From a virus (taxonomy: Duplodnaviria; Heunggongvirae; Uroviricota; Caudoviricetes): DNA of 41,145 nt. Location: positions 1-41,145 of IMG/VR virus record IMGVR_UViG_2531839440_000003. The stretch is one strand, 5' to 3'. The notes under the pieces were generated by a model. The model was not told the DNA's origin. It did not search any database and saw only the letters and a list, made by a program, of their open reading frames with translations. A program made the position numbers and the translations under genes. Of the stretch, positions 1,307 to 12,282 are shown piece by piece (within the stretch, counting starts at the first letter, position 1; each line of letters begins with the position of its first letter).

Positions 1307-3778
1307 TTAAAAATCAACCGGATTCGGGATCAGTTTTTGCCAGATTGCTGAAACGTATTTTGCCTGGTAACGGGCGTCATCAAGTGCATTATGGCGCTCA
1401 CCTTCGAATGGAATAGCCGTTCTGGCATCGAAGTCTATGGCTTTCCCCAGCTCAACGATTGTGCGTACATCGCGATCGTTGTAGTAACGCCACGGGCAGG
1501 GGATCCCCTGCCGTTCGTATGAACGGCGCAAAATCGTGTTGTCGAAGTTGGCTCCATTTCCCCAGACCTGAACAAAAAATTCGCCGGAGTTTTCGTCGAT
1601 AAATTCCCGCAATTGTAACAGTGCATCATCTAACGGGATTTCATCGGTCATAATGGCAGATTGCGCCTCGCGTGATTGCTTAAGCCACCATTTAATGGTG
1701 TCACGATCAATGACTCCGCCAGCAGTTTCCAGATCGATAGTCTTACTAAATTCCGGTCCCATATCTCCGGTTTGCGGATCGAAAAATATTGCACCTATTG
1801 AGATAATCGGGGCATCAGGATTTTTTCCCATGGTTTCAAGGTCGATCATTAGATGGTCACACGTCCTGCTGGTGGATGTGATAACGCGATGACCGTTCAC
1901 CGTAATTAAGGGATCTGCCGTCTCGCCAGTTTCACTATCGCTGGCGTGATCCTGAGCGCTGCCAGCATTCTCCTTGTGTGGGTGTTCAGCGCCTTCCATT
2001 TTCTCCGAATCGTCTTCCTGAACTTCAACCTGGTTCTTGTCATCGAATGTTTCCTGGTATGTTGCGTCGCCCATCACCGCACCACAATCAGGGCAGTTGC
2101 CACCACCGCTCTGACCGCAGGCGGTGCAGATTTTTTCCGGTTCCTGTTGCACTACTGGTTCAGGTTGTTTCGTTTCTGGCTCGTTTTGTTGCGTATTTGG
2201 GCTGTTTTGTTCCGCTTTCTGGTCGTTCTGTTCCGTTTCTTGCTGGTTCTGGTTCACAGTATCGCGGGTCTGGATCCCCTTAACCCATTTCGGATCATTC
2301 GGGTCGCTAATCCCTTCAATAAATTCACCACGTGATGCAGCAAGCAACTTATCGGCGTCAGGCTGGCTGATATTGGCTGCCTGCATAATTTTGTTTACTT
2401 CGTCAGCGGTAACTTTTACCGGTTCTGGCTGTGCGGTCGTGTCAGATGCACCAGTATTTTGTTGTGAACCTGAGTATGTACTGTTTTTGCGGGCGAAATA
2501 TTCTTCTTTCGTGATTTCAGTAGCCCCGGCAGCCAGCGCCTTATCCAGACCAGAAAGTTTGTTTGCGCGACCGTATTTTTCGCCATCCTTGTCGGTGAAG
2601 AGGAAGTAGAACGGCCCCTCACGCTCTACAGATGGTTCGACTTCCACTTTGCATTCGGTTTTTTCGTTGTCCGGAATTGCCGTTTCCACTGCATCAGTTT
2701 CTGGTACTGGCGACGAGAGAGTATCAGTTGCGCTCTGATTTGTTCCTTCATCTTCAAACACGCCCTTTGTAGTCAGGTATTCAGTAATGTATTTGTTCAG
2801 TGCCACAGGATCTTTGTGAATGTCGATCGGACGTTCACGGACAAGGCCAAAAATAGTCTGGCGGTCGTAGCGAAGGGCATCAGGCTGTTTGCGCATCGAT
2901 GCCGAGATACGCTTCCAGTCTTCGCGGTCGTTGTCGATAACTTCATTTTTTGCCCAGCGATGGATGCTGCCGTCAATGTTTCCGGCATCCACATCACCAG
3001 GCCAGAGAGCGTAGGCCAGTTCGTCATCCAGTGTTTTCCATGTCTGCTTGTATTCGCGATGAGTGGCAGCAATGACCGGGTTGATTTTTCCTGTTGAATT
3101 TTCAGTGTTCTGTTGATTGGCTCTGGCGCGGGCGAGATCAACAACAGACGTGTATTTTCCGGTTTCCTTGCGTTCACCTTCGCGACGTTTTTTCCAGATG
3201 CGCATCTCTGCCTGAATTTCGGGCCATTTAGCACCAGGAATACATTTATGCTTAACCCACCCAATGGCGTGCAACTTAAGCTCCGGATACATGGCGTTAA
3301 CTTCTGGCATTTTCATCAACGCTTCAACGATATGTCCGTCGAATGTTGCCATGTCTTCCTGCAACAGTTCCTGTGCACTAATCACCATATCAACGGTGAT
3401 GTTTTCACATGTGTCGAACTTAACCATGACAGCGTTCTGTACTTCAGGGGCCAGCTTGTCAAAAGTGACGTTCATCGGATTTGATTCAGTCTCAACCGGG
3501 ACAAAGGAAGCTGACTCCTCATCCCAGCGGTTTTCCTGCATATATTCAGCATCCCAGGAATCGAGGGCAGGGCGGGGTATACCGGGTTTATCCTCGCAAA
3601 CAAGAAATTTATAAGCGCAGTCCTGAGCAGCCGGATAATGTTCCAGGAATTGCCAGTGAAATTTTGCGCGGGCGCGACGTTCATCACCGGCTTCAATGGC
3701 AGTGGCTACAGCGACTGCACCTTCTTCCTTTATTGCCTGTTCGTCCGGAATGGCGGCGCAAATAAAGACTTTACTCAT
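1307..3778 (-). CDS. Phage exonuclease, C-terminal DEDDh (DnaQ-like) 3'-5' exonuclease domain, with Q/N/E-rich linker and Cys4 zinc ribbon
   Basis: 823-aa ORF; C-terminal motifs DLETMG (Exo I), WGNGANFD (Exo II), HNALDDARY (Exo III); central CTACG...CPDCG zinc ribbon; low-complexity QNxE linker encoded by degenerate DNA repeats near 2100-2300. Confidence 0.8.
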   Translation of the reverse strand: MSKVFICAAIPDEQAIKEEGAVAVATAIEAGDERRARAKFHWQFLEHYPAAQDCAYKFLVCEDKPGIPRPALDSWDAEYMQENRWDEESASFVPVETESNPMNVTFDKLAPEVQNAVMVKFDTCENITVDMVISAQELLQEDMATFDGHIVEALMKMPEVNAMYPELKLHAIGWVKHKCIPGAKWPEIQAEMRIWKKRREGERKETGKYTSVVDLARARANQQNTENSTGKINPVIAATHREYKQTWKTLDDELAYALWPGDVDAGNIDGSIHRWAKNEVIDNDREDWKRISASMRKQPDALRYDRQTIFGLVRERPIDIHKDPVALNKYITEYLTTKGVFEDEGTNQSATDTLSSPVPETDAVETAIPDNEKTECKVEVEPSVEREGPFYFLFTDKDGEKYGRANKLSGLDKALAAGATEITKEEYFARKNSTYSGSQQNTGASDTTAQPEPVKVTADEVNKIMQAANISQPDADKLLAASRGEFIEGISDPNDPKWVKGIQTRDTVNQNQQETEQNDQKAEQNSPNTQQNEPETKQPEPVVQQEPEKICTACGQSGGGNCPDCGAVMGDATYQETFDDKNQVEVQEDDSEKMEGAEHPHKENAGSAQDHASDSETGETADPLITVNGHRVITSTSRTCDHLMIDLETMGKNPDAPIISIGAIFFDPQTGDMGPEFSKTIDLETAGGVIDRDTIKWWLKQSREAQSAIMTDEIPLDDALLQLREFIDENSGEFFVQVWGNGANFDNTILRRSYERQGIPCPWRYYNDRDVRTIVELGKAIDFDARTAIPFEGERHNALDDARYQAKYVSAIWQKLIPNPVDF

Positions 3779-6177: not shown

Positions 6178-6585
6178 TTACTGATGTTTGTTACGTTTGC
6201 GAGCTTCTAGTAGCTCGGTGAATAGGCGATTAAAATTCTCAACGCGGGCACGGAGTTCGCTGATTTGTGCTTGCTGCTCTGATTTTGGAAGTGCGCGATA
6301 CAATCGCAACATCTCCAACTCATCTTCCGATAAGTCTAAGGCGCTGTTGAGTGCAACTGGTGGATCTGGTGTTTTATCCTCGTCACCAAACAGTATCCAA
6401 GTTGGTGAACATTGCAATACCTCAGCCAGGCGATGCAAATTTTGCCCACGCGGGGCTGTATGGTCGCTTTCCCATAGTGAAATTGATGAGCCAGATACGC
6501 CAGCGGCTTTGCTTAAATCGTTTTGACTTAAACCAACCTGTTTGCGTCTTTCTCTAATTCGTTGACCTAAAGTTTTCTCGTTCAT
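6178..6585 (-). CDS. dicA: DicA-like HTH (XRE-family) prophage repressor
   Basis: 135-aa ORF with N-terminal HTH (LSQNDLSKAAGVSGSSISLWE) and the segment LQCSPTWILFGDEDK, which I recall from E. coli DicA; divergent from the Cro-like gene. Confidence 0.75.
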   Translation of the reverse strand: MNEKTLGQRIRERRKQVGLSQNDLSKAAGVSGSSISLWESDHTAPRGQNLHRLAEVLQCSPTWILFGDEDKTPDPPVALNSALDLSEDELEMLRLYRALPKSEQQAQISELRARVENFNRLFTELLEARKRNKHQ

Positions 6586-6662
6586 ATTTAGATATCTTAA
6601 TAACCCTTGACTTGAGATTCCTTGAGTGATTACTATTGAGAAAACTCAATTTTGGAGGGGTG
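6586..6662. promoter_or_regulatory. Divergent immunity promoter/operator region
   Basis: TTGACT -35-like hexamer near 6607, repeated CTTGAG half-sites, operator palindrome ATTGAGAAAACTCAAT at 6635..6650, then GGAGGGG RBS of the Cro-like gene. Confidence 0.5.
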
Positions 6663-6890
6663 ATGTTTAAATCAGACGTAATTAATTTTTATGGGACGAA
6701 AGCCAAAGTAGCGAAAGCTGCTGGTGTTGATCCATCTGCTGTTTCTCAATGGGGGGAACTGGTTCCTGAAGGTCGCGCGATGCGCCTGCAAGAGGCATCC
6801 GACGGGGAACTTCAGTACGACCCCAAAGTTTATGACGAATATCGTAAGGCAAAGCGGGCGGGGCGGTTGAACAATGAAAATCACCCCTGA
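6663..6890 (+). CDS. dicC: DicC/Cro-like small regulator
   Basis: 75 aa from ATG at 6663; segment VPEGRAMRLQEASDGELQYDPKVY matches what I recall of DicC; divergent from repressor. Confidence 0.6.
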   Translation: MFKSDVINFYGTKAKVAKAAGVDPSAVSQWGELVPEGRAMRLQEASDGELQYDPKVYDEYRKAKRAGRLNNENHP

Positions 6891-7395
6891 ACAGGTTTGT
6901 GAGGCTCTGGATGCCTGGGTATGTCGACCAGGAATGACACAGGAGCAGGCGACGATATTAATCACGGAAGCATTCTGGGCTCTGAAAGAACGCCCGAACA
7001 TCGATGTTCAACGCGTCACGTTTAATGATGGCGAGGTTGATCAACGGGCGCTGGGCGTTAACCGGGTGAAGATATTCGAACGCTGGAAAGCTATCGACAC
7101 CAGGGATAAGCGGAAAAAATTCACGGCGCTGATTCCGGCAATTATGGAGGCTATCCGGATTAATGATTTCAGGTTGTATCGTGAAATTACTGACGGAAAA
7201 AGCATTACGTACATGATCGCCGGGTTAAATAAAGAATATGGCGATGTGGTGGAATCCGGACTGCTTTTTGCAGATCCAGCTGTAGTGGATCGTGAAACTG
7301 ACGAACTTATAGAAAAAGCAATTGCTTTCAAGCTTGCGTATCGACAGCAATACCAACAAAAAGCTGGATGGAATTATGAGTCTTCTTTTTGCTGA
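6874..7395 (+). CDS. Hypothetical early regulatory protein (possibly YdaT/CII-like)
   Basis: 173-aa ORF between cro-like and replication genes; family assignment tentative. Confidence 0.4.
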   Translation: MKITPEQVCEALDAWVCRPGMTQEQATILITEAFWALKERPNIDVQRVTFNDGEVDQRALGVNRVKIFERWKAIDTRDKRKKFTALIPAIMEAIRINDFRLYREITDGKSITYMIAGLNKEYGDVVESGLLFADPAVVDRETDELIEKAIAFKLAYRQQYQQKAGWNYESSFC

Positions 7396-8341
7396 ACGCC
7401 CACTGGTTATAAACACGCAGCTGGCAATGAAAATTGGCTTAAACGAAGCCATTGTTTTGCAACAACTGCACTACTGGTTGAGAGATACCAACTCCGGCAT
7501 GGAATGTGATGGTGTTCGCTGGATTTATAACACAACGGAACAATGGCTGGAACAGTTCCCGTTCTGGTCAGAGTCAACGTTAAAGCGCGCGTTTGCAAGT
7601 CTGAAAACGCTGGGGCTTTTGCGTTGTGAAAAGCTCAATAAATCAAAGCGCGATATGACCAATTTCTACACGATCAACTACGGGAACGAGCTTTTAGATG
7701 GTGGCAAAGTGAGCGAATCCATCGGTTCAAAATGCGCCGCTCCATCAGGTCAAAATGACACGATGGAAGAGATCAAAATGAAACGCTCCATTGGTTCAAA
7801 ACGACTCAATGTCATCGGGTCAAAATGGCCTGATGATCTTACAGAGAATACAACAGAGATTACTACAGAGAATAAAAACACTTCTCGTCCGGAAGCTTCG
7901 CAACCGGACCCGCAGACGGTTGAACAGGATTTTTTAACCCGACACCCTGACGCGGTTGTGTTCAGTGCAAAAAAACGCCAGTGGGGCAACCAGGAAGATT
8001 TGGCGTGTGCGCAGTGGATCTGGGGACGAATCGTGAGTCTTTACGAGCAGGCCGCCAGCGATGATGGCGAGATTTCGCGACCGAAAGAACCCAACTGGAC
8101 CGCATGGGCCAACGACGTGCGCACAATGCGGATGCTGGATGGCAGAACTCACAGACAAATTTGTGAAATGTTTGGTCGGGTGCAGCGGGATCCATTCTGG
8201 GTAAAAAATATCATGAGTCCGTCAAAGCTTCGCGAAAAATGGGATGAACTGGTTATCCGCCTGGGGCGTTCGTCTGTACAGCGTTGTGTGAATCATATTT
8301 CTGAGCCGGATACCGAAATTCCGCCGGGGTTCAGGGGGTAA
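7376..8341 (+). CDS. Replication initiation protein (iteron-binding, O-like/DnaD-like)
   Basis: ATG at 7376; located upstream of DnaC-like loader; gene body contains iterons 7718..7827. Confidence 0.7.
   Translation: MSLLFAERPLVINTQLAMKIGLNEAIVLQQLHYWLRDTNSGMECDGVRWIYNTTEQWLEQFPFWSESTLKRAFASLKTLGLLRCEKLNKSKRDMTNFYTINYGNELLDGGKVSESIGSKCAAPSGQNDTMEEIKMKRSIGSKRLNVIGSKWPDDLTENTTEITTENKNTSRPEASQPDPQTVEQDFLTRHPDAVVFSAKKRQWGNQEDLACAQWIWGRIVSLYEQAASDDGEISRPKEPNWTAWANDVRTMRMLDGRTHRQICEMFGRVQRDPFWVKNIMSPSKLREKWDELVIRLGRSSVQRCVNHISEPDTEIPPGFRG
7718..7880 (+). repeat. Replication origin: five 17-bp iterons at 23-bp spacing followed by A/T-rich ACAGAGAAT repeats
   Basis: Iterons TCCATCGGTTCAAAATG (7718), TCCATCAGGTCAAAATG (7741), degenerate GAAGAGATCAAAATG (7766), TCCATTGGTTCAAAACG (7787), GTCATCGGGTCAAAATG (7811); then ACAGAGAATA copies at 7841..7877. 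Confidence 0.6.
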
Positions 8342-8347
8342 CGGGCC

Positions 8348-9094
8348 ATGAAAAATATCGCGACAGGTGGTGTTCTTGAGCGTATCCGTAAGCTGACCCC
8401 GCAGCATGTAATCGCGCCGTACCGGACAGTGGACGAGTGGCGCGAGTGGCAACTGGCAGAAGGGCGAAAACGTAGCGAGGAGATCAACCGCCAGAATCGC
8501 CAGTTGCGGGTGGAAAAAATCCTGAATCGTTCGGGCATCCAGCCTCTGCACAGCAAATGCTCGTTTGCGAATTATCAGGTGCAGAACGACGGGCAAAAAC
8601 ACGCGCTGAGCCAGGCAAAATCTATCGCTGACGAACTGATGACCGGGTGCACGAATTTTGTGTTCAGCGGTAAGCCGGGTACCGGAAAGAACCACCTTGC
8701 AGCCGCCATTGGCAATCATCTTCTGGCGAAAGGTCGCAGCGTGATTGTGATAACGGTGGCTGATGTGATGCTGGCGTTACACAACAGCTACGACAACAAA
8801 AACTCAGGCGAAAAATTTTTACAGGGGTTGTGTGATGTTGACCTGCTTGTCCTGGATGAAATCGGAATGCAGCGGGATACGCGCAACGAGCAGGTCACAC
8901 TGAACCAGATAGTCGACCGCAGAACGGCTTCGATGCGTAGTGTCGGAATGCTGACGAACCTGAACCACGTAGCGATGAGTACGCTTCTTGGCGAGCGTGT
9001 GATGGACCGCATGGTCATGAACGGTGGTCGCTGGGTGAATTTTAACTGGGAGAGCTGGCGTTCGAATGTCAGACACCTGAGGGTTGTGAAGTAA
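8348..9094 (+). CDS. DnaC-like replicative helicase loader (IstB-type AAA+ ATPase)
   Basis: Walker A FSGKPGTGKNHLAAAIG, Walker B DLLVLDEIG; follows initiator gene. Confidence 0.85.
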   Translation: MKNIATGGVLERIRKLTPQHVIAPYRTVDEWREWQLAEGRKRSEEINRQNRQLRVEKILNRSGIQPLHSKCSFANYQVQNDGQKHALSQAKSIADELMTGCTNFVFSGKPGTGKNHLAAAIGNHLLAKGRSVIVITVADVMLALHNSYDNKNSGEKFLQGLCDVDLLVLDEIGMQRDTRNEQVTLNQIVDRRTASMRSVGMLTNLNHVAMSTLLGERVMDRMVMNGGRWVNFNWESWRSNVRHLRVVK

Positions 9095-11867: not shown

Positions 11868-12126
11868 ATACAGCGAACGCCATTGGTTTAGTTGGATATT
11901 TACTGTGCCGGACAAAAACGGTTTGCGGGGAAATCTTAGTTAAGTAGAATAACTGCGGGTGCTTGAGGCTATCTGTCTCAGGCATGAACACCAAAAGGCA
12001 GATAGAGAAAAGCCCCAGTTAACATTACGCGTCCTGCAAGACGCTTAACATTAATCTGAGGCCCAATCTATGTCTCACAAATGTAGGTTAGCCTCTTACG
12101 TGCCGAAAGGCAAGGAGAAGCAGGCT

Positions 12127-12282
12127 ATGAAGCAGCAAAAGGCGATGTTAATCGCCCTGATCGTCATCTGTTTAACCGTCATAGTGACGGCACTGGTAAC
12201 GAGGAAAGACCTCTGCGAGGTACGAATCCGAACCGGCCAGATGGAGGTTGCTGTTTTCGTAGACTACGAATCTAGAGAGTAA
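12127..12282 (+). CDS. hok: Hok/Gef-family type I toxin
   Basis: 51 aa MKQQKAMLIALIVICLTVIVTALVTRKDLCEVRIRTGQMEVAVFVDYESRE, closely resembling Hok (..[34 protein letters not shown].AYES); AAGGAG RBS; in-frame upstream extension from 12070. Confidence 0.8.
   Translation: MKQQKAMLIALIVICLTVIVTALVTRKDLCEVRIRTGQMEVAVFVDYESRE

What the first reader, a model, noticed from the sequence alone, without database searches (positions are those of the whole stretch)
7718..7880. Origin of replication embedded in the initiator gene: 23-bp periodic iterons plus A/T-rich repeats
Five copies of a 17-bp motif (consensus TCCATCGGTTCAAAATG, one degenerate) recur every 23 bp inside the initiator coding sequence, followed by three ACAGAGAAT repeats, the same logic as lambda ori within gene O. 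In protein they appear as repeated SIGSK/IGSK segments.
Basis: partly seen in the sequence, partly recalled or inferred. Interest (0 to 1): 0.45.

Follow-up and report, generated by a model that had tools for sequence, protein, structure and literature searches.

The report
Phage replication origin inside initiator gene
The repeats are real and are almost certainly the replication origin of a lambda-like E. coli prophage, built into the flexible-linker part of its own initiator gene; this is a textbook arrangement, though for an initiator family that databases mostly call 'hypothetical'.

Summary
Five 23-bp-spaced repeats (7719-7836) are followed by three 12-bp ACAGAGAWT repeats (7841-7876). 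They lie in a 321-aa initiator gene (7376-8341), upstream of a DnaC-like gene.

The constraint acts on the DNA, not the peptide:
- The 23-bp period puts the repeats in all three reading frames.
- Among 17 enterobacterial homologues, third-codon-position identity peaks at 0.73-0.88 exactly over 7718-7879. It is 0.33-0.62 in the flanks, although amino-acid identity is higher in the N-terminal domain.
- The interval encodes a predicted disordered linker (pLDDT about 30).
- The 12-mer block is the least stable duplex in the gene.

In 79 related loci from Proteobacteria to Firmicutes the layout recurs. The iterons are lineage-specific. The CAGAGAnTAC 11/12-mers are conserved across phyla.

The initiator is a mosaic:
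- a C-terminal domain homologous to lambda O (E 3e-27);
- a tail resembling the end of E. coli DnaT.

It is a new, uncharacterised member of a known kind. The phylum-wide 12-mer element is the one part that may be under-described.

The parts
6607..6636 (+). pR-like sigma-70 promoter. It would drive rightward transcription through cro, the cII-like gene, the initiator gene with the origin, and the DnaC-like gene.
   Evidence: Consensus scan only: TTGACT-18-TACTAT, 9 of 12. It lies between the divergent cI-like gene (6178-6585, minus strand; HTH_3) and the Cro gene (P22_Cro, 8e-18).
7376..8341 (+). Initiator gene, 321 aa. It encodes a winged-helix N-terminal domain (residues about 6-109), a disordered linker (110-178) that carries the origin, a lambda-O-type C-terminal domain (about 179-296) and a DnaT-like tail.
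7719..7743 (+). Iteron 1 (core TCAAAATG at 7727)
   Evidence: Left arm CCATC plus GGTTCAAAATG. The right arm is not symmetric.
7742..7766 (+). Iteron 2 (core at 7750). It is the best semi-palindrome: CCATCAGGTCAAAATGACACGATGG.
   Evidence: (I13/I2). Inverted arms converge on the A tract.
7765..7789 (+). Iteron 3 (core at 7773), degenerate: GGAAGAGATCAAAATGAAACGCTCC
   Evidence: Relatives show a 46-bp super-period, in which strong and weak copies alternate.
7788..7812 (+). Iteron 4 (core at 7796): CCATTGGTTCAAAACGACTCAATGT
7812..7836 (+). Iteron 5 (core at 7820): TCATCGGGTCAAAATGGCCTGATGA, a semi-palindrome that abuts the A/T-rich block
   Evidence: (I2). The -21 offset from the 12-mer block is fixed in all 16 relatives examined except L015, where every core offset is 12 bp larger (-33).
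7837..7880 (+). A/T-rich, A-skewed block with three 12-bp repeats (ACAGAGAATACA 7841, ACAGAGATTACT 7853, ACAGAGAATAAA 7865). It is the proposed DNA-unwinding and helicase-entry region.
   Evidence: TRF period 12. GC 0.30 and AT skew 0.57. Least stable duplex in the gene. Nearly invariant in relatives at about 78% overall identity. The motif is enriched more than 100-fold at this position in 79 loci. Codon-level test for Thr-Glu: ACA in 126/138 and GAG in 125/138. It aligns with the lambda A/T-rich region.
7887..7909 (+). Short inverted repeat GTCCGG-N11-CCGGAC just right of the A/T-rich block. It occupies the same position as the inverted repeat on the right side of lambda ori.
   Evidence: The arms are invariant in alignment A1. 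The lambda counterpart GTCAGAGAATTCTGGCGAATCCTCTGAC is visible. Its function is inferred only.
8288..8338 (+). C-terminal tail VNHISEPDTEIPPGFRG, which resembles the last 17-22 residues of E. coli DnaT. It is the proposed docking peptide for host replication-restart or helicase-loading machinery.
   Evidence: PDB DnaT chains 2ru8, 6aep and 9zbt match residues 296-321. NCBIfam DnaT positions 158-179 match at E 0.003. The tail motif IPxGFRG is widespread in relatives.
8348..9094 (+). DnaC-like helicase-loader gene (248 aa), 7 nt downstream of the initiator gene
   Evidence: NCBIfam PRK12377, 499.5 bits against a cut-off of 389. The DnaC equivalog scores 316.6, below its cut-off of 357. E. coli DnaC 6qel matches at 6e-76. 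IstB_IS21 and Bac_DnaA AAA+.

Best explanation
The interval 7719-7909 is the vegetative (theta) replication origin of a lambdoid E. coli prophage. It is embedded in the linker-coding part of its own initiator gene.

Proposed mechanism, all inferred:
1. Dimers of the initiator's N-terminal winged-helix domain bind the five semi-palindromic iterons (CCATCnGGTCA-AAA-TGACnnGATGG, 23 bp apart) and form an O-some-like nucleoprotein complex.
2. The stress this creates, helped by rightward transcription from the pR-like promoter, melts the adjacent A-rich block of three 12-bp ACAGAGAWTAC repeats.
3. The lambda-O-type C-terminal domain and its DnaT-like tail then bring in the helicase-loading machinery. 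This is the phage DnaC-like protein and/or host DnaC with DnaB. DnaB is placed on the opened strands.

Shown here by computation: the anatomy, the DNA-level constraint, the domain architecture and homologies, and the recurrence of the layout across relatives. Not shown: binding, melting, helicase recruitment and origin activity.
For: - Repeat array far above chance: 4 hits against 0.18 expected. Spacing is 23/23/23/24 bp.
- DNA-level rather than peptide-level selection. The copies are read in all three frames. In 17 enterobacterial homologues, third-codon-position pairwise identity is 0.73-0.88 over 7718-7879. It is 0.38-0.62 in the N-terminal domain and 0.33-0.47 in the C-terminal domain, while amino-acid identity is lower in the origin part than in the N-terminal domain.
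- The interval encodes a predicted disordered linker (residues 110-178, pLDDT about 30) between two folded domains.
- The 12-mer block is the least stable 40-bp duplex in the gene, about 3 sd from the mean and in the least stable 0.3% of the window.
- Comparative anatomy. In 79 loci found through the N-terminal domain, most carry a 22-24-bp-period array at +315 to +460 nt with a lineage-specific unit. It is followed by CAGAGAnTAC 11/12-mers. The motif gives 163 plus-strand hits in bins +300 to +599, against about 1 per 100-nt bin elsewhere. 66 of 79 loci have at least one copy.
- Some loci have 11-bp spacing, which puts copies in two frames.
- Thr-Glu codons in the linker are ACA-GAG in about 91% of cases, against no preference elsewhere in the same ORFs (Fisher 5e-18 and 1.5e-7).
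- Iteron cores keep fixed offsets (-114, -91, -68, -45, -21) from the 12-mer block.
- The C-terminal domain is homologous to lambda O, and the 12-mer block aligns with lambda's A/T-rich region. Lambda iterons are spaced 20/24/23 bp.
- Gene order is cI / cro / cII-like / initiator / DnaC-like, with a pR-like promoter.
- Lambda-type origins are defined as iterons plus an A/T-rich tract in the middle of gene O (PMC7466680).
Against: - There is no experimental evidence for this element or for any close relative. Literature searches found no study of the mEp460-type origin.
- The related loci are not phylogenetically independent, so the Fisher P values overstate significance.
- The 12-mers mostly share one reading frame (150 of 163) and encode a conserved TENTTE peptide. 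A protein-level contribution therefore cannot be excluded.
- Fold-search E-values from Foldseek are weak (0.02 or higher).
- The partner of the DnaT-like tail is unknown. In the DnaT literature read here the C-terminal domain contacts PriA, and DnaB/DnaC recruitment is unresolved.
- Most relatives with this tail have no DnaC-like gene nearby, so the role of the phage DnaC-like protein is not obligatory for the family.
Confidence: 0.85

Rival explanations
1. The repeats are only a repetitive, low-complexity peptide linker (SIGSK..., TENTTEITTENK) selected at the protein level. The DNA has no function of its own.
For: The interval is coding. Three of five iterons give xIGSK. The TENTTE peptide is conserved in protein alignments. 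150 of 163 12-mer copies in relatives share one frame.
Against: - The 23-bp period puts copies 2 and 3 in other frames.
- Third-position identity exceeds amino-acid identity in the interval.
- Thr and Glu codon choice in the linker is fixed to ACA and GAG, unlike elsewhere in the same ORFs.
- 11-bp-spaced copies in 8 loci change frame.
- Iteron units differ between lineages but are kept multi-copy within each locus.
Confidence: 0.03
2. The iterons are binding sites for the initiator or another regulator that serve control rather than initiation. Candidates are autoregulation, copy-number or incompatibility control, or exclusion of related phages. The true origin would lie elsewhere.
For: In plasmids, iterons also mediate copy control. 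Cloned lambda ori fragments exert replication inhibition on rep-lambda phages (title and abstract of PMC3349717). Nothing here tests initiation directly.
Against: - The array is joined at a fixed offset to the least stable duplex in the gene.
- It aligns with the lambda iteron and A/T-rich arrangement.
- No other tandem array with this architecture was found in the window.
- There are no DnaA boxes within 7000-9000.
Confidence: 0.07
3. The conservation reflects a recombination junction. The 40-bp ACAGAGAAT block would be a shared homology patch where lambdoid replication modules are swapped, kept similar by frequent horizontal exchange rather than by origin function.
For: - The block 7835-7874 recurs at 97.5% identity in Stx-phage initiator genes. 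Their C-terminal flank is unrelated and their N-terminal domain is only a remote homologue of this one.
- Many E. coli genomes share only the part from about 7875 onward, with another N-terminal domain.
Against: - The motif is conserved in Firmicutes, Pseudomonas, Vibrionaceae and others with very different GC content and no flanking DNA identity. That is not explained by recent exchange.
- Being a junction and being an origin element are compatible. In lambda the module boundary is also at ori (established knowledge, from memory).
Confidence: 0.05

Closest known systems
Bacteriophage lambda ori within gene O, and the 6-iteron origins of Stx phages
   Same: - The origin lies in the middle of the initiator gene.
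- Four or more semi-palindromic iterons with a central A tract are spaced about 20-24 bp apart (lambda 20/24/23, here 23/23/23/24).
- An A-rich, strand-asymmetric, easily melted block lies immediately to the right, followed by a short inverted repeat.
[quoted passage not shown]
- The gene order and rightward pR-type transcription are the same.

   Different: - The DNA-binding N-terminal domain shows no detectable similarity to lambda O (no Pfam Phage_rep_O hit; hhalign probability 0.1%).
- The iteron sequence differs (GGTCAAAATGAC against TCCCTCAAAACGAGGGA).
- The A/T-rich block is made of regular 12-mers.
- The partner gene is DnaC-like, not lambda P.
- The C-terminal tail is DnaT-like instead of lambda O's P-binding end.
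RepA_N plasmid and satellite initiators (pSK41, pTZ2162, Vibrio PLE RepA)
   Same: [quoted passage not shown]
- The protein is modular, with a DNA-binding N-terminal domain and a host- or partner-specific C-terminal domain.
- From my own knowledge (Weaver et al. 2009, Plasmid), RepA_N origins also lie inside the rep gene.
   Different: - No Pfam RepA_N (PF06970) hit at E of 0.01 or below.
- The sequence family is distinct (motifs LNEAIVLQQxHYW ... WYTINY).
- It is phage-borne.
- It is followed by the conserved CAGAGAnTAC 12-mers, and here by a lambda-O-type C-terminal domain.
Lambdoid 'initiator plus DnaC-type loader' and 'initiator-solo' replication modules (classification of Weigel and Seitz 2006, cited from memory; the paper is not held)
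   Same: An O-like initiator gene carries the origin and is followed by a DnaC-like AAA+ loader (the window, O157 locus L086, phage 75/02). In mEp460, PhiR42_1 and most relatives it is followed by no loader at all.
   Different: I could not check whether that review describes this particular N-terminal domain family or the conserved 12-mers.
E. coli DnaT (primosomal protein I), C-terminal tail only
   Same: The last 17-22 residues match: VNHISEPDTEIPPGFRG against VNTVSEPDSQIPPGFRG. In both cases a dnaC-type gene follows immediately.
   Different: The rest of the protein is unrelated (17 bits against a family cut-off of 201). RAST's name 'Primosomal protein I' for the phage homologues rests on the tail only.

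Membership tests
Lambda-type phage origin (iterons plus A/T-rich tract inside the initiator gene) | Located inside the initiator gene, between the segments coding for the DNA-binding domain and the C-terminal domain | tested here: met
   7719-7880 corresponds to codons 115-168. AF2 gives folded domains at 6-109 and 179-296 and a linker with pLDDT about 30.
Lambda-type phage origin (iterons plus A/T-rich tract inside the initiator gene) | Four or more direct repeats with internal dyad symmetry at about two helical turns' spacing | tested here: met
   Five copies at 23/23/23/24 bp, 4 hits against 0.18 expected. The consensus is a semi-palindrome around AAA(A). Lambda spacing is 20/24/23.
Lambda-type phage origin (iterons plus A/T-rich tract inside the initiator gene) | A/T-rich, strand-asymmetric, low-stability tract adjacent to the last iteron | tested here: met
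   GC 0.30 and AT skew +0.57. Least stable 40-mer of the gene.
Lambda-type phage origin (iterons plus A/T-rich tract inside the initiator gene) | DNA-level (not only peptide-level) purifying selection on the interval | tested here: met
   Third-position identity is 0.73-0.88 against 0.33-0.62 in the flanks. Codon-choice test. Repeats read in three frames.
Lambda-type phage origin (iterons plus A/T-rich tract inside the initiator gene) | Initiator binds the iterons, and the fragment supports initiator-dependent replication | not testable with these tools
   Needs EMSA or footprinting and a mini-replicon assay.
Lambda O protein family (Pfam Phage_rep_O, N-terminal DNA-binding domain) | N-terminal domain matches the family profile | tested here: not met
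   0 Pfam families at E of 0.01 or below. hhalign of the N-terminal domain profile against the lambda O N-terminal domain gives probability 0.1%.
Lambda O protein family (C-terminal domain) | C-terminal domain homologous to lambda O residues about 135-270 | tested here: met
   BLASTP 34% identity over 148 aa, E 3e-27. PHROG 277/391 'O-like'.
RepA_N initiators (Pfam PF06970) | Sequence match to the RepA_N profile | tested here: not met
   No Pfam hit.
RepA_N initiators (Pfam PF06970) | Winged-helix N-terminal domain fold of RepA_N/DnaD-N type | tested here: met
   [not shown]
RepA_N initiators (Pfam PF06970) | [quoted passage not shown] | tested here: met
   Consensus CCATCnGGTCA-AAA-TGACnnGATGG. 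The definition is from PMC7145576.
DnaC helicase loader (downstream gene 8348-9094) | Scores above the curated family cut-off | tested here: inconclusive
   Passes NCBIfam PRK12377 'ATP-binding protein' (499.5 against 389). It falls below the DnaC equivalog cut-off (316.6 against 357). It is therefore a DnaC-like paralogue, not DnaC itself. It matches E. coli DnaC at 6e-76.
DnaT (primosomal protein I) | Full-length match to the DnaT model | tested here: not met
   17.1 bits against a cut-off of 201. Only model positions 158-179 match.

The most novel reading that the evidence does not exclude
The 11/12-bp CAGAGAnTAC repeats may be a phylum-spanning, sequence-specific origin element. It would act as an unwinding or helicase-entry site, or as an ssDNA-binding site, and not merely as 'A/T-rich DNA'. 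It is tied to a very large, Pfam-unannotated superfamily of RepA_N/DnaD-like winged-helix phage initiators. It stays constant while the iterons, the C-terminal domains (lambda-O-type, DnaD, Phg_2220_C) and the helicase loaders are swapped around it. If so, it would be a general, searchable signature of temperate-phage origins from E. coli to Staphylococcus. It would also point to a conserved, still unidentified reader of that sequence.
Probability: 0.3. Interest if true: 0.6.

Novelty: new member of a known kind. Interest (0 to 1): 0.4.

Why it matters
This initiator gene is present full-length in about a third of complete E. coli genomes (1799 of 5426). It is mostly labelled 'hypothetical protein'. 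Relatives occur in Staphylococcus, Bacillus, Listeria, Pseudomonas and Klebsiella phages.

Recognising the embedded origin has several uses:
- It gives a concrete annotation for these genes.
- It gives a ready-made mini-replicon design.
- It gives targets for phage-origin decoys.
- It explains why this gene segment resists synonymous change.

Two points are hypothesis-generating:
- The conserved 12-mer block suggests how unwinding might be specified.
- The DnaT-like tail suggests how 'initiator-solo' phages might engage the host helicase-loading machinery.

Tried and rejected
- Pfam scan of the initiator gave nothing.
- Literature searches found no study of this origin type: iterons/lambdoid/DnaC, 'bacteriophage replication modules', mEp460, replisome organizer plus iterons, and lambdoid/DnaC-like/O-like.
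- A search for the string CAGAGAATAC returned only unrelated primer lists.
- The Weigel and Seitz 2006 review is not held.
- My first codon-usage test was circular, because the zone was defined by the DNA motif. I discarded it and replaced it with a test that selects on the peptide.
- My first iteron-logo script had a faulty pattern and was redone.
- DnaA boxes: none within 7000-9000, so a DnaA-dependent origin is not indicated.
- Rfam: no RNA family in the interval, so a structured-RNA reading was dropped.
- The 2026 preprimosome paper was read to find a partner for the DnaT tail. It does not discuss the extreme C-terminus, so the partner is left open.
- I considered a Mantel-type test of co-variation between N-terminal domain and iterons. 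I did not run it, because shared ancestry alone would give a correlation.

Full report

Yes. Reading 7400-8200 shows five copies of a unit centred on TCAAAA(T/C)G. The cores lie at 7727, 7750, 7773, 7796 and 7820, giving spacings of 23, 23, 23 and 24 bp.

0.18 are expected, and no shuffle reaches 4. The middle copy is degenerate.

Tandem Repeats Finder reports the period-23 array (7718-7801) and a period-12 array (7841-7874, ACAGAGAATACA, 2.8 copies).

The interval 7840-7879 has GC 0.30 and AT skew +0.57. It contains the least stable 40-bp duplex of the gene: -44.3 kcal/mol against a mean of -55.2 with sd 3.7. That places it in the least stable 0.3% of the whole window.

**2. Context**

The window is a mosaic lambdoid prophage or phage of E. 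coli. The local gene order is:
- a cI-like repressor (6178-6585, minus strand);
- a pR-like promoter (6607-6636);
- Cro (6636-6890);
- a cII/YdaT-like gene (6874-7395);
- the initiator (ATG 7376 to 8341, 321 aa);
- a DnaC-like AAA+ gene (8348-9094).

The initiator has no Pfam family. It matches PHROG 391 'replication initiation O-like' at 2e-95. Its closest phage relatives are PhiR42_1, HannyBb and mEp460.

**3. DNA element or peptide repeat?**

Three independent lines say DNA.

(a) A 23-bp period cannot be a peptide period. The copies translate as SIGSK, PSGQN, EIKMK, SIGSK and VIGSK.

(b) In a codon alignment of 17 enterobacterial homologues, mean pairwise identity at third codon positions rises to 0.73-0.88 exactly over 7718-7879. 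It is 0.38-0.62 across the N-terminal domain and 0.33-0.47 across the C-terminal domain. Amino-acid identity is higher in the N-terminal domain (up to 0.89) than in the repeat interval (0.53-0.75).

(c) Even a Klebsiella phage at about 78% overall identity keeps the block GATGATCTTACAGAGAATACAACAGAGA.TACTACAGAGA.TA almost unchanged. Its two changes within the three 12-mers (ATT to AGT, AAT to ATT) are non-synonymous and none is synonymous.

**4. Protein architecture**

An AlphaFold2 model built on a 50-sequence alignment gives:
- a confident N-terminal domain (residues 6-109, pLDDT 80-94, helix-helix-strand-strand-helix-helix-strand-strand);
- a disordered stretch at 110-178 (pLDDT about 30);
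- a helical C-terminal domain at 179-296 (pLDDT about 70-83).

The origin interval (codons 115-168) therefore lies wholly in the linker.

Residues 147-294 are homologous to lambda O 135-270 (34% identity, E 3e-27). The N-terminal domain shows no similarity to the lambda O N-terminal domain.

The last 17 residues, VNHISEPDTEIPPGFRG, match the extreme C-terminus of E. coli DnaT.

**5. Iteron anatomy**

I pooled 75 distinct units from 16 related loci. The informative positions are T..A...GGTCAAAATGA...G.T. This is an imperfect palindrome, CCATCnGGTCA-AAA-TGACnnGATGG, centred on the A tract.

[quoted passage not shown] It is also the general design of lambda's TCCCTCAAAACGAGGGA.

The cores keep fixed offsets of -114, -91, -68, -45 and -21 from the first 12-mer in most relatives. 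Some relatives have one or two more copies upstream. Several relatives show a 46-bp super-period, in which strong and weak copies alternate.

**6. Comparative anatomy across phyla**

A scan of one genome per species with the initiator alignment returned 80 loci. They come from Enterobacterales, Pantoea, Pseudomonas, Photobacterium, Acinetobacter, Bacillus and Neobacillus, Staphylococcus, lactobacilli, Tissierellia and others.

In most of them, TRF finds a 22-24-bp-period array at +315 to +460 nt from the start of the N-terminal domain. The unit is lineage-specific. Examples are AAGGACAATTTGTCC, GGGCAATTTGCAC, GTGATCAATCTGCGCAC, TGATCCAACGAGCGGATCAAAA and CACCGCAAAATGCGGT. Usually each is itself a palindrome around an A/T centre. 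Multi-copy identity is kept within each locus while the unit differs between loci. That pattern is expected for binding sites that co-evolve with their cognate DNA-binding domain.

Immediately downstream, 66 of 79 loci carry at least one copy of AGAGA[ACT]T[ATC][ACT], and 54 carry at least two. There are 163 plus-strand hits in bins +300 to +599, against about one per 100-nt bin anywhere else in 409 kb. The spacing is 12 bp in 81 cases and 11 bp in 5.

In eight loci the copies occupy two reading frames.

A test that selects on the peptide, not the DNA, gives this result. Thr-Glu dipeptides at residues 115-205 use ACA in 126 of 138 cases and GAG in 125 of 138. Elsewhere in the same ORFs the figures are 10 of 44 and 23 of 44 (Fisher 5e-18 and 1.5e-7). 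The loci are related, so these P values are not exact. However, the set spans very different GC contents.

**7. Mosaicism at the origin**

The 40-bp 12-mer block recurs at 97.5% identity in Stx-phage initiator genes. There the N-terminal domain is only a remote homologue (hhalign probability 74%, E 3e-5), the iterons differ (GGGAAACCC...), and the C-terminal domain is unrelated. That module is followed by an ATPase and a DnaB-type helicase.

Conversely, many E. coli prophages share only the part from about 7875 onward. They have an HTH_36 N-terminal domain, GTTGACCCGTCAAAT iterons and a different A/T-rich tract.

So the origin is also the module junction, as in classical lambdoid phages.

**8. 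Mechanism (inferred)**

1. Dimers of the N-terminal domain occupy the iterons and bend or wrap the DNA.
2. The adjacent 12-mer block melts, assisted by rightward transcription.
3. The lambda-O-type C-terminal domain and the DnaT-like tail recruit the helicase loader and DnaB.

No DnaA box lies within 7000-9000, and no Rfam family lies in the interval.

Most relatives with the IPxGFRG tail have no DnaC-like gene within about 2 kb. This suggests that the tail engages a host factor. In the window and in O157 locus L086 a DnaC paralogue has been added. The tail plus DnaC-like gene also moves as a unit, since the match to phage 75/02 starts at about 8281. The partner of the DnaT C-terminus is not established in the literature I could read.

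**9. Comparison and novelty**

The differences from lambda are:
- an N-terminal domain family with a RepA_N/DnaD-like fold and no Pfam model;
- regular, phylum-conserved 12-mers in place of a merely A/T-rich tract;
- the DnaT-like tail;
- a DnaC-type loader.

No classical, experimentally mapped phage origin turned up among the 89 phage records that carry this N-terminal domain. Those records are mEp460, Staphylococcus phages 96/42E/P954, Bacillus TP21-L, Lactobacillus mv4, Pseudomonas AF and others. The literature searches found no study of it.

I file it as a new, uncharacterised member of a known kind. The 12-mer element is the one feature that may be under-described.

**10. Limits**

Everything here is computational. 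Binding, melting, helicase loading and origin activity are untested.

Noticed in passing
window 8288-8338 (initiator residues 305-321): The C-terminal tail VNHISEPDTEIPPGFRG closely resembles the extreme C-terminus of E. coli DnaT (VNTVSEPDSQIPPGFRG), and as with dnaT a dnaC-type gene follows. RAST's label 'Primosomal protein I' for phage homologues rests on this tail alone. The IPxGFRG ending is widespread in relatives from Escherichia, Pantoea, Enterobacter and Scandinavium. Most of them have no DnaC-like gene nearby, which suggests mimicry of a host DnaT interaction.
   Followed up: partly
protein P0017 (E. coli, 290 aa) against window 7727-7820: This is a natural in-frame 93-bp (31-codon) deletion variant that fuses iteron 1 to iteron 5 and leaves a single iteron. 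It looks like an ori-defective allele produced by recombination between iterons. It is reminiscent (from memory) of lambda ori-minus 'r' deletions.
   Followed up: no
window 7835-7874; L087 1501-1560 (Stx2a phage Stx2_14040); L088: The 40-bp ACAGAGAAT block occurs at 97.5% identity inside an initiator gene that is otherwise unrelated at the DNA level. That gene has different iterons (GGGAAACCC type) and a different C-terminal domain, and is followed by an ATPase and a DnaB-type helicase. It carries four 12-mer copies. The block marks a mosaic junction between replication modules.
   Followed up: partly
L086 1330-1500 (E. coli O157:H7 prophage): This alternative initiator shares the C-terminal domain, tail and DnaC-like gene with the window from about 7875 onward. 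It has an HTH_36/DnaD_N-type N-terminal domain and its own 23-bp-period iterons (GTTGACCCGTCAAAT). Its A/T-rich tract is made of two GATCCGTCAG(T)AT(T)AAAA units with several GATC sites instead of the 12-mers.
   Followed up: partly
whole initiator gene 7376-8341; E. coli genome collection: The gene is present full-length in 1799 of 5426 complete E. coli genomes and is mostly annotated 'hypothetical protein'. Its N-terminal domain (motifs LNEAIVLQQxHYW ... FPFWS ... WYTINY) has no Pfam model, although it occurs from Proteobacteria to Firmicutes fused to at least three different C-terminal domains (lambda-O-type, DnaD, Phg_2220_C).
   Followed up: partly
L066 (Candidatus Caedibacter acanthamoebae), +317 to +370 and +845 to +905 from the N-terminal domain start: Two separate arrays of the same 23-bp iteron (CAAAATGACACGATCGATCG) lie about 530 bp apart. 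No CAGAGA 12-mers are present, and the ORF appears truncated at 156 aa. The locus may be rearranged or decaying.
   Followed up: no
window 11957-12132 (+): An Rfam sok antitoxin RNA (120 bits, gathering score 59) indicates a hok/sok-type toxin-antitoxin locus in the prophage.
   Followed up: no
window 16844-17090 (+): Three tandem tRNA genes (Rfam tRNA, 56-72 bits) lie in the late-regulatory region, as in many Stx and lambdoid phages.
   Followed up: no
window 2165-2248 and 19639-19680: Two other tandem repeats: four copies of a 21-bp unit (TTGTTCCGTTTCTGGCTCGTT, 74% matches) inside the ORF at 1307-3778 (minus strand; exodeoxyribonuclease VIII by homology to related phages), and an exact 21-bp duplication (TTGAAATGAGCGGTCAACATG) at 19639-19680. 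Neither was examined.
   Followed up: no
window 7887-7909: The inverted repeat GTCCGG-N11-CCGGAC lies right of the A/T-rich block and is conserved in close relatives. In some relatives (L012, L043) the corresponding stretch resembles lambda's TCGTCAGAGAATTCTGGCGAATCC inverted repeat, including the GAATTC.
   Followed up: partly
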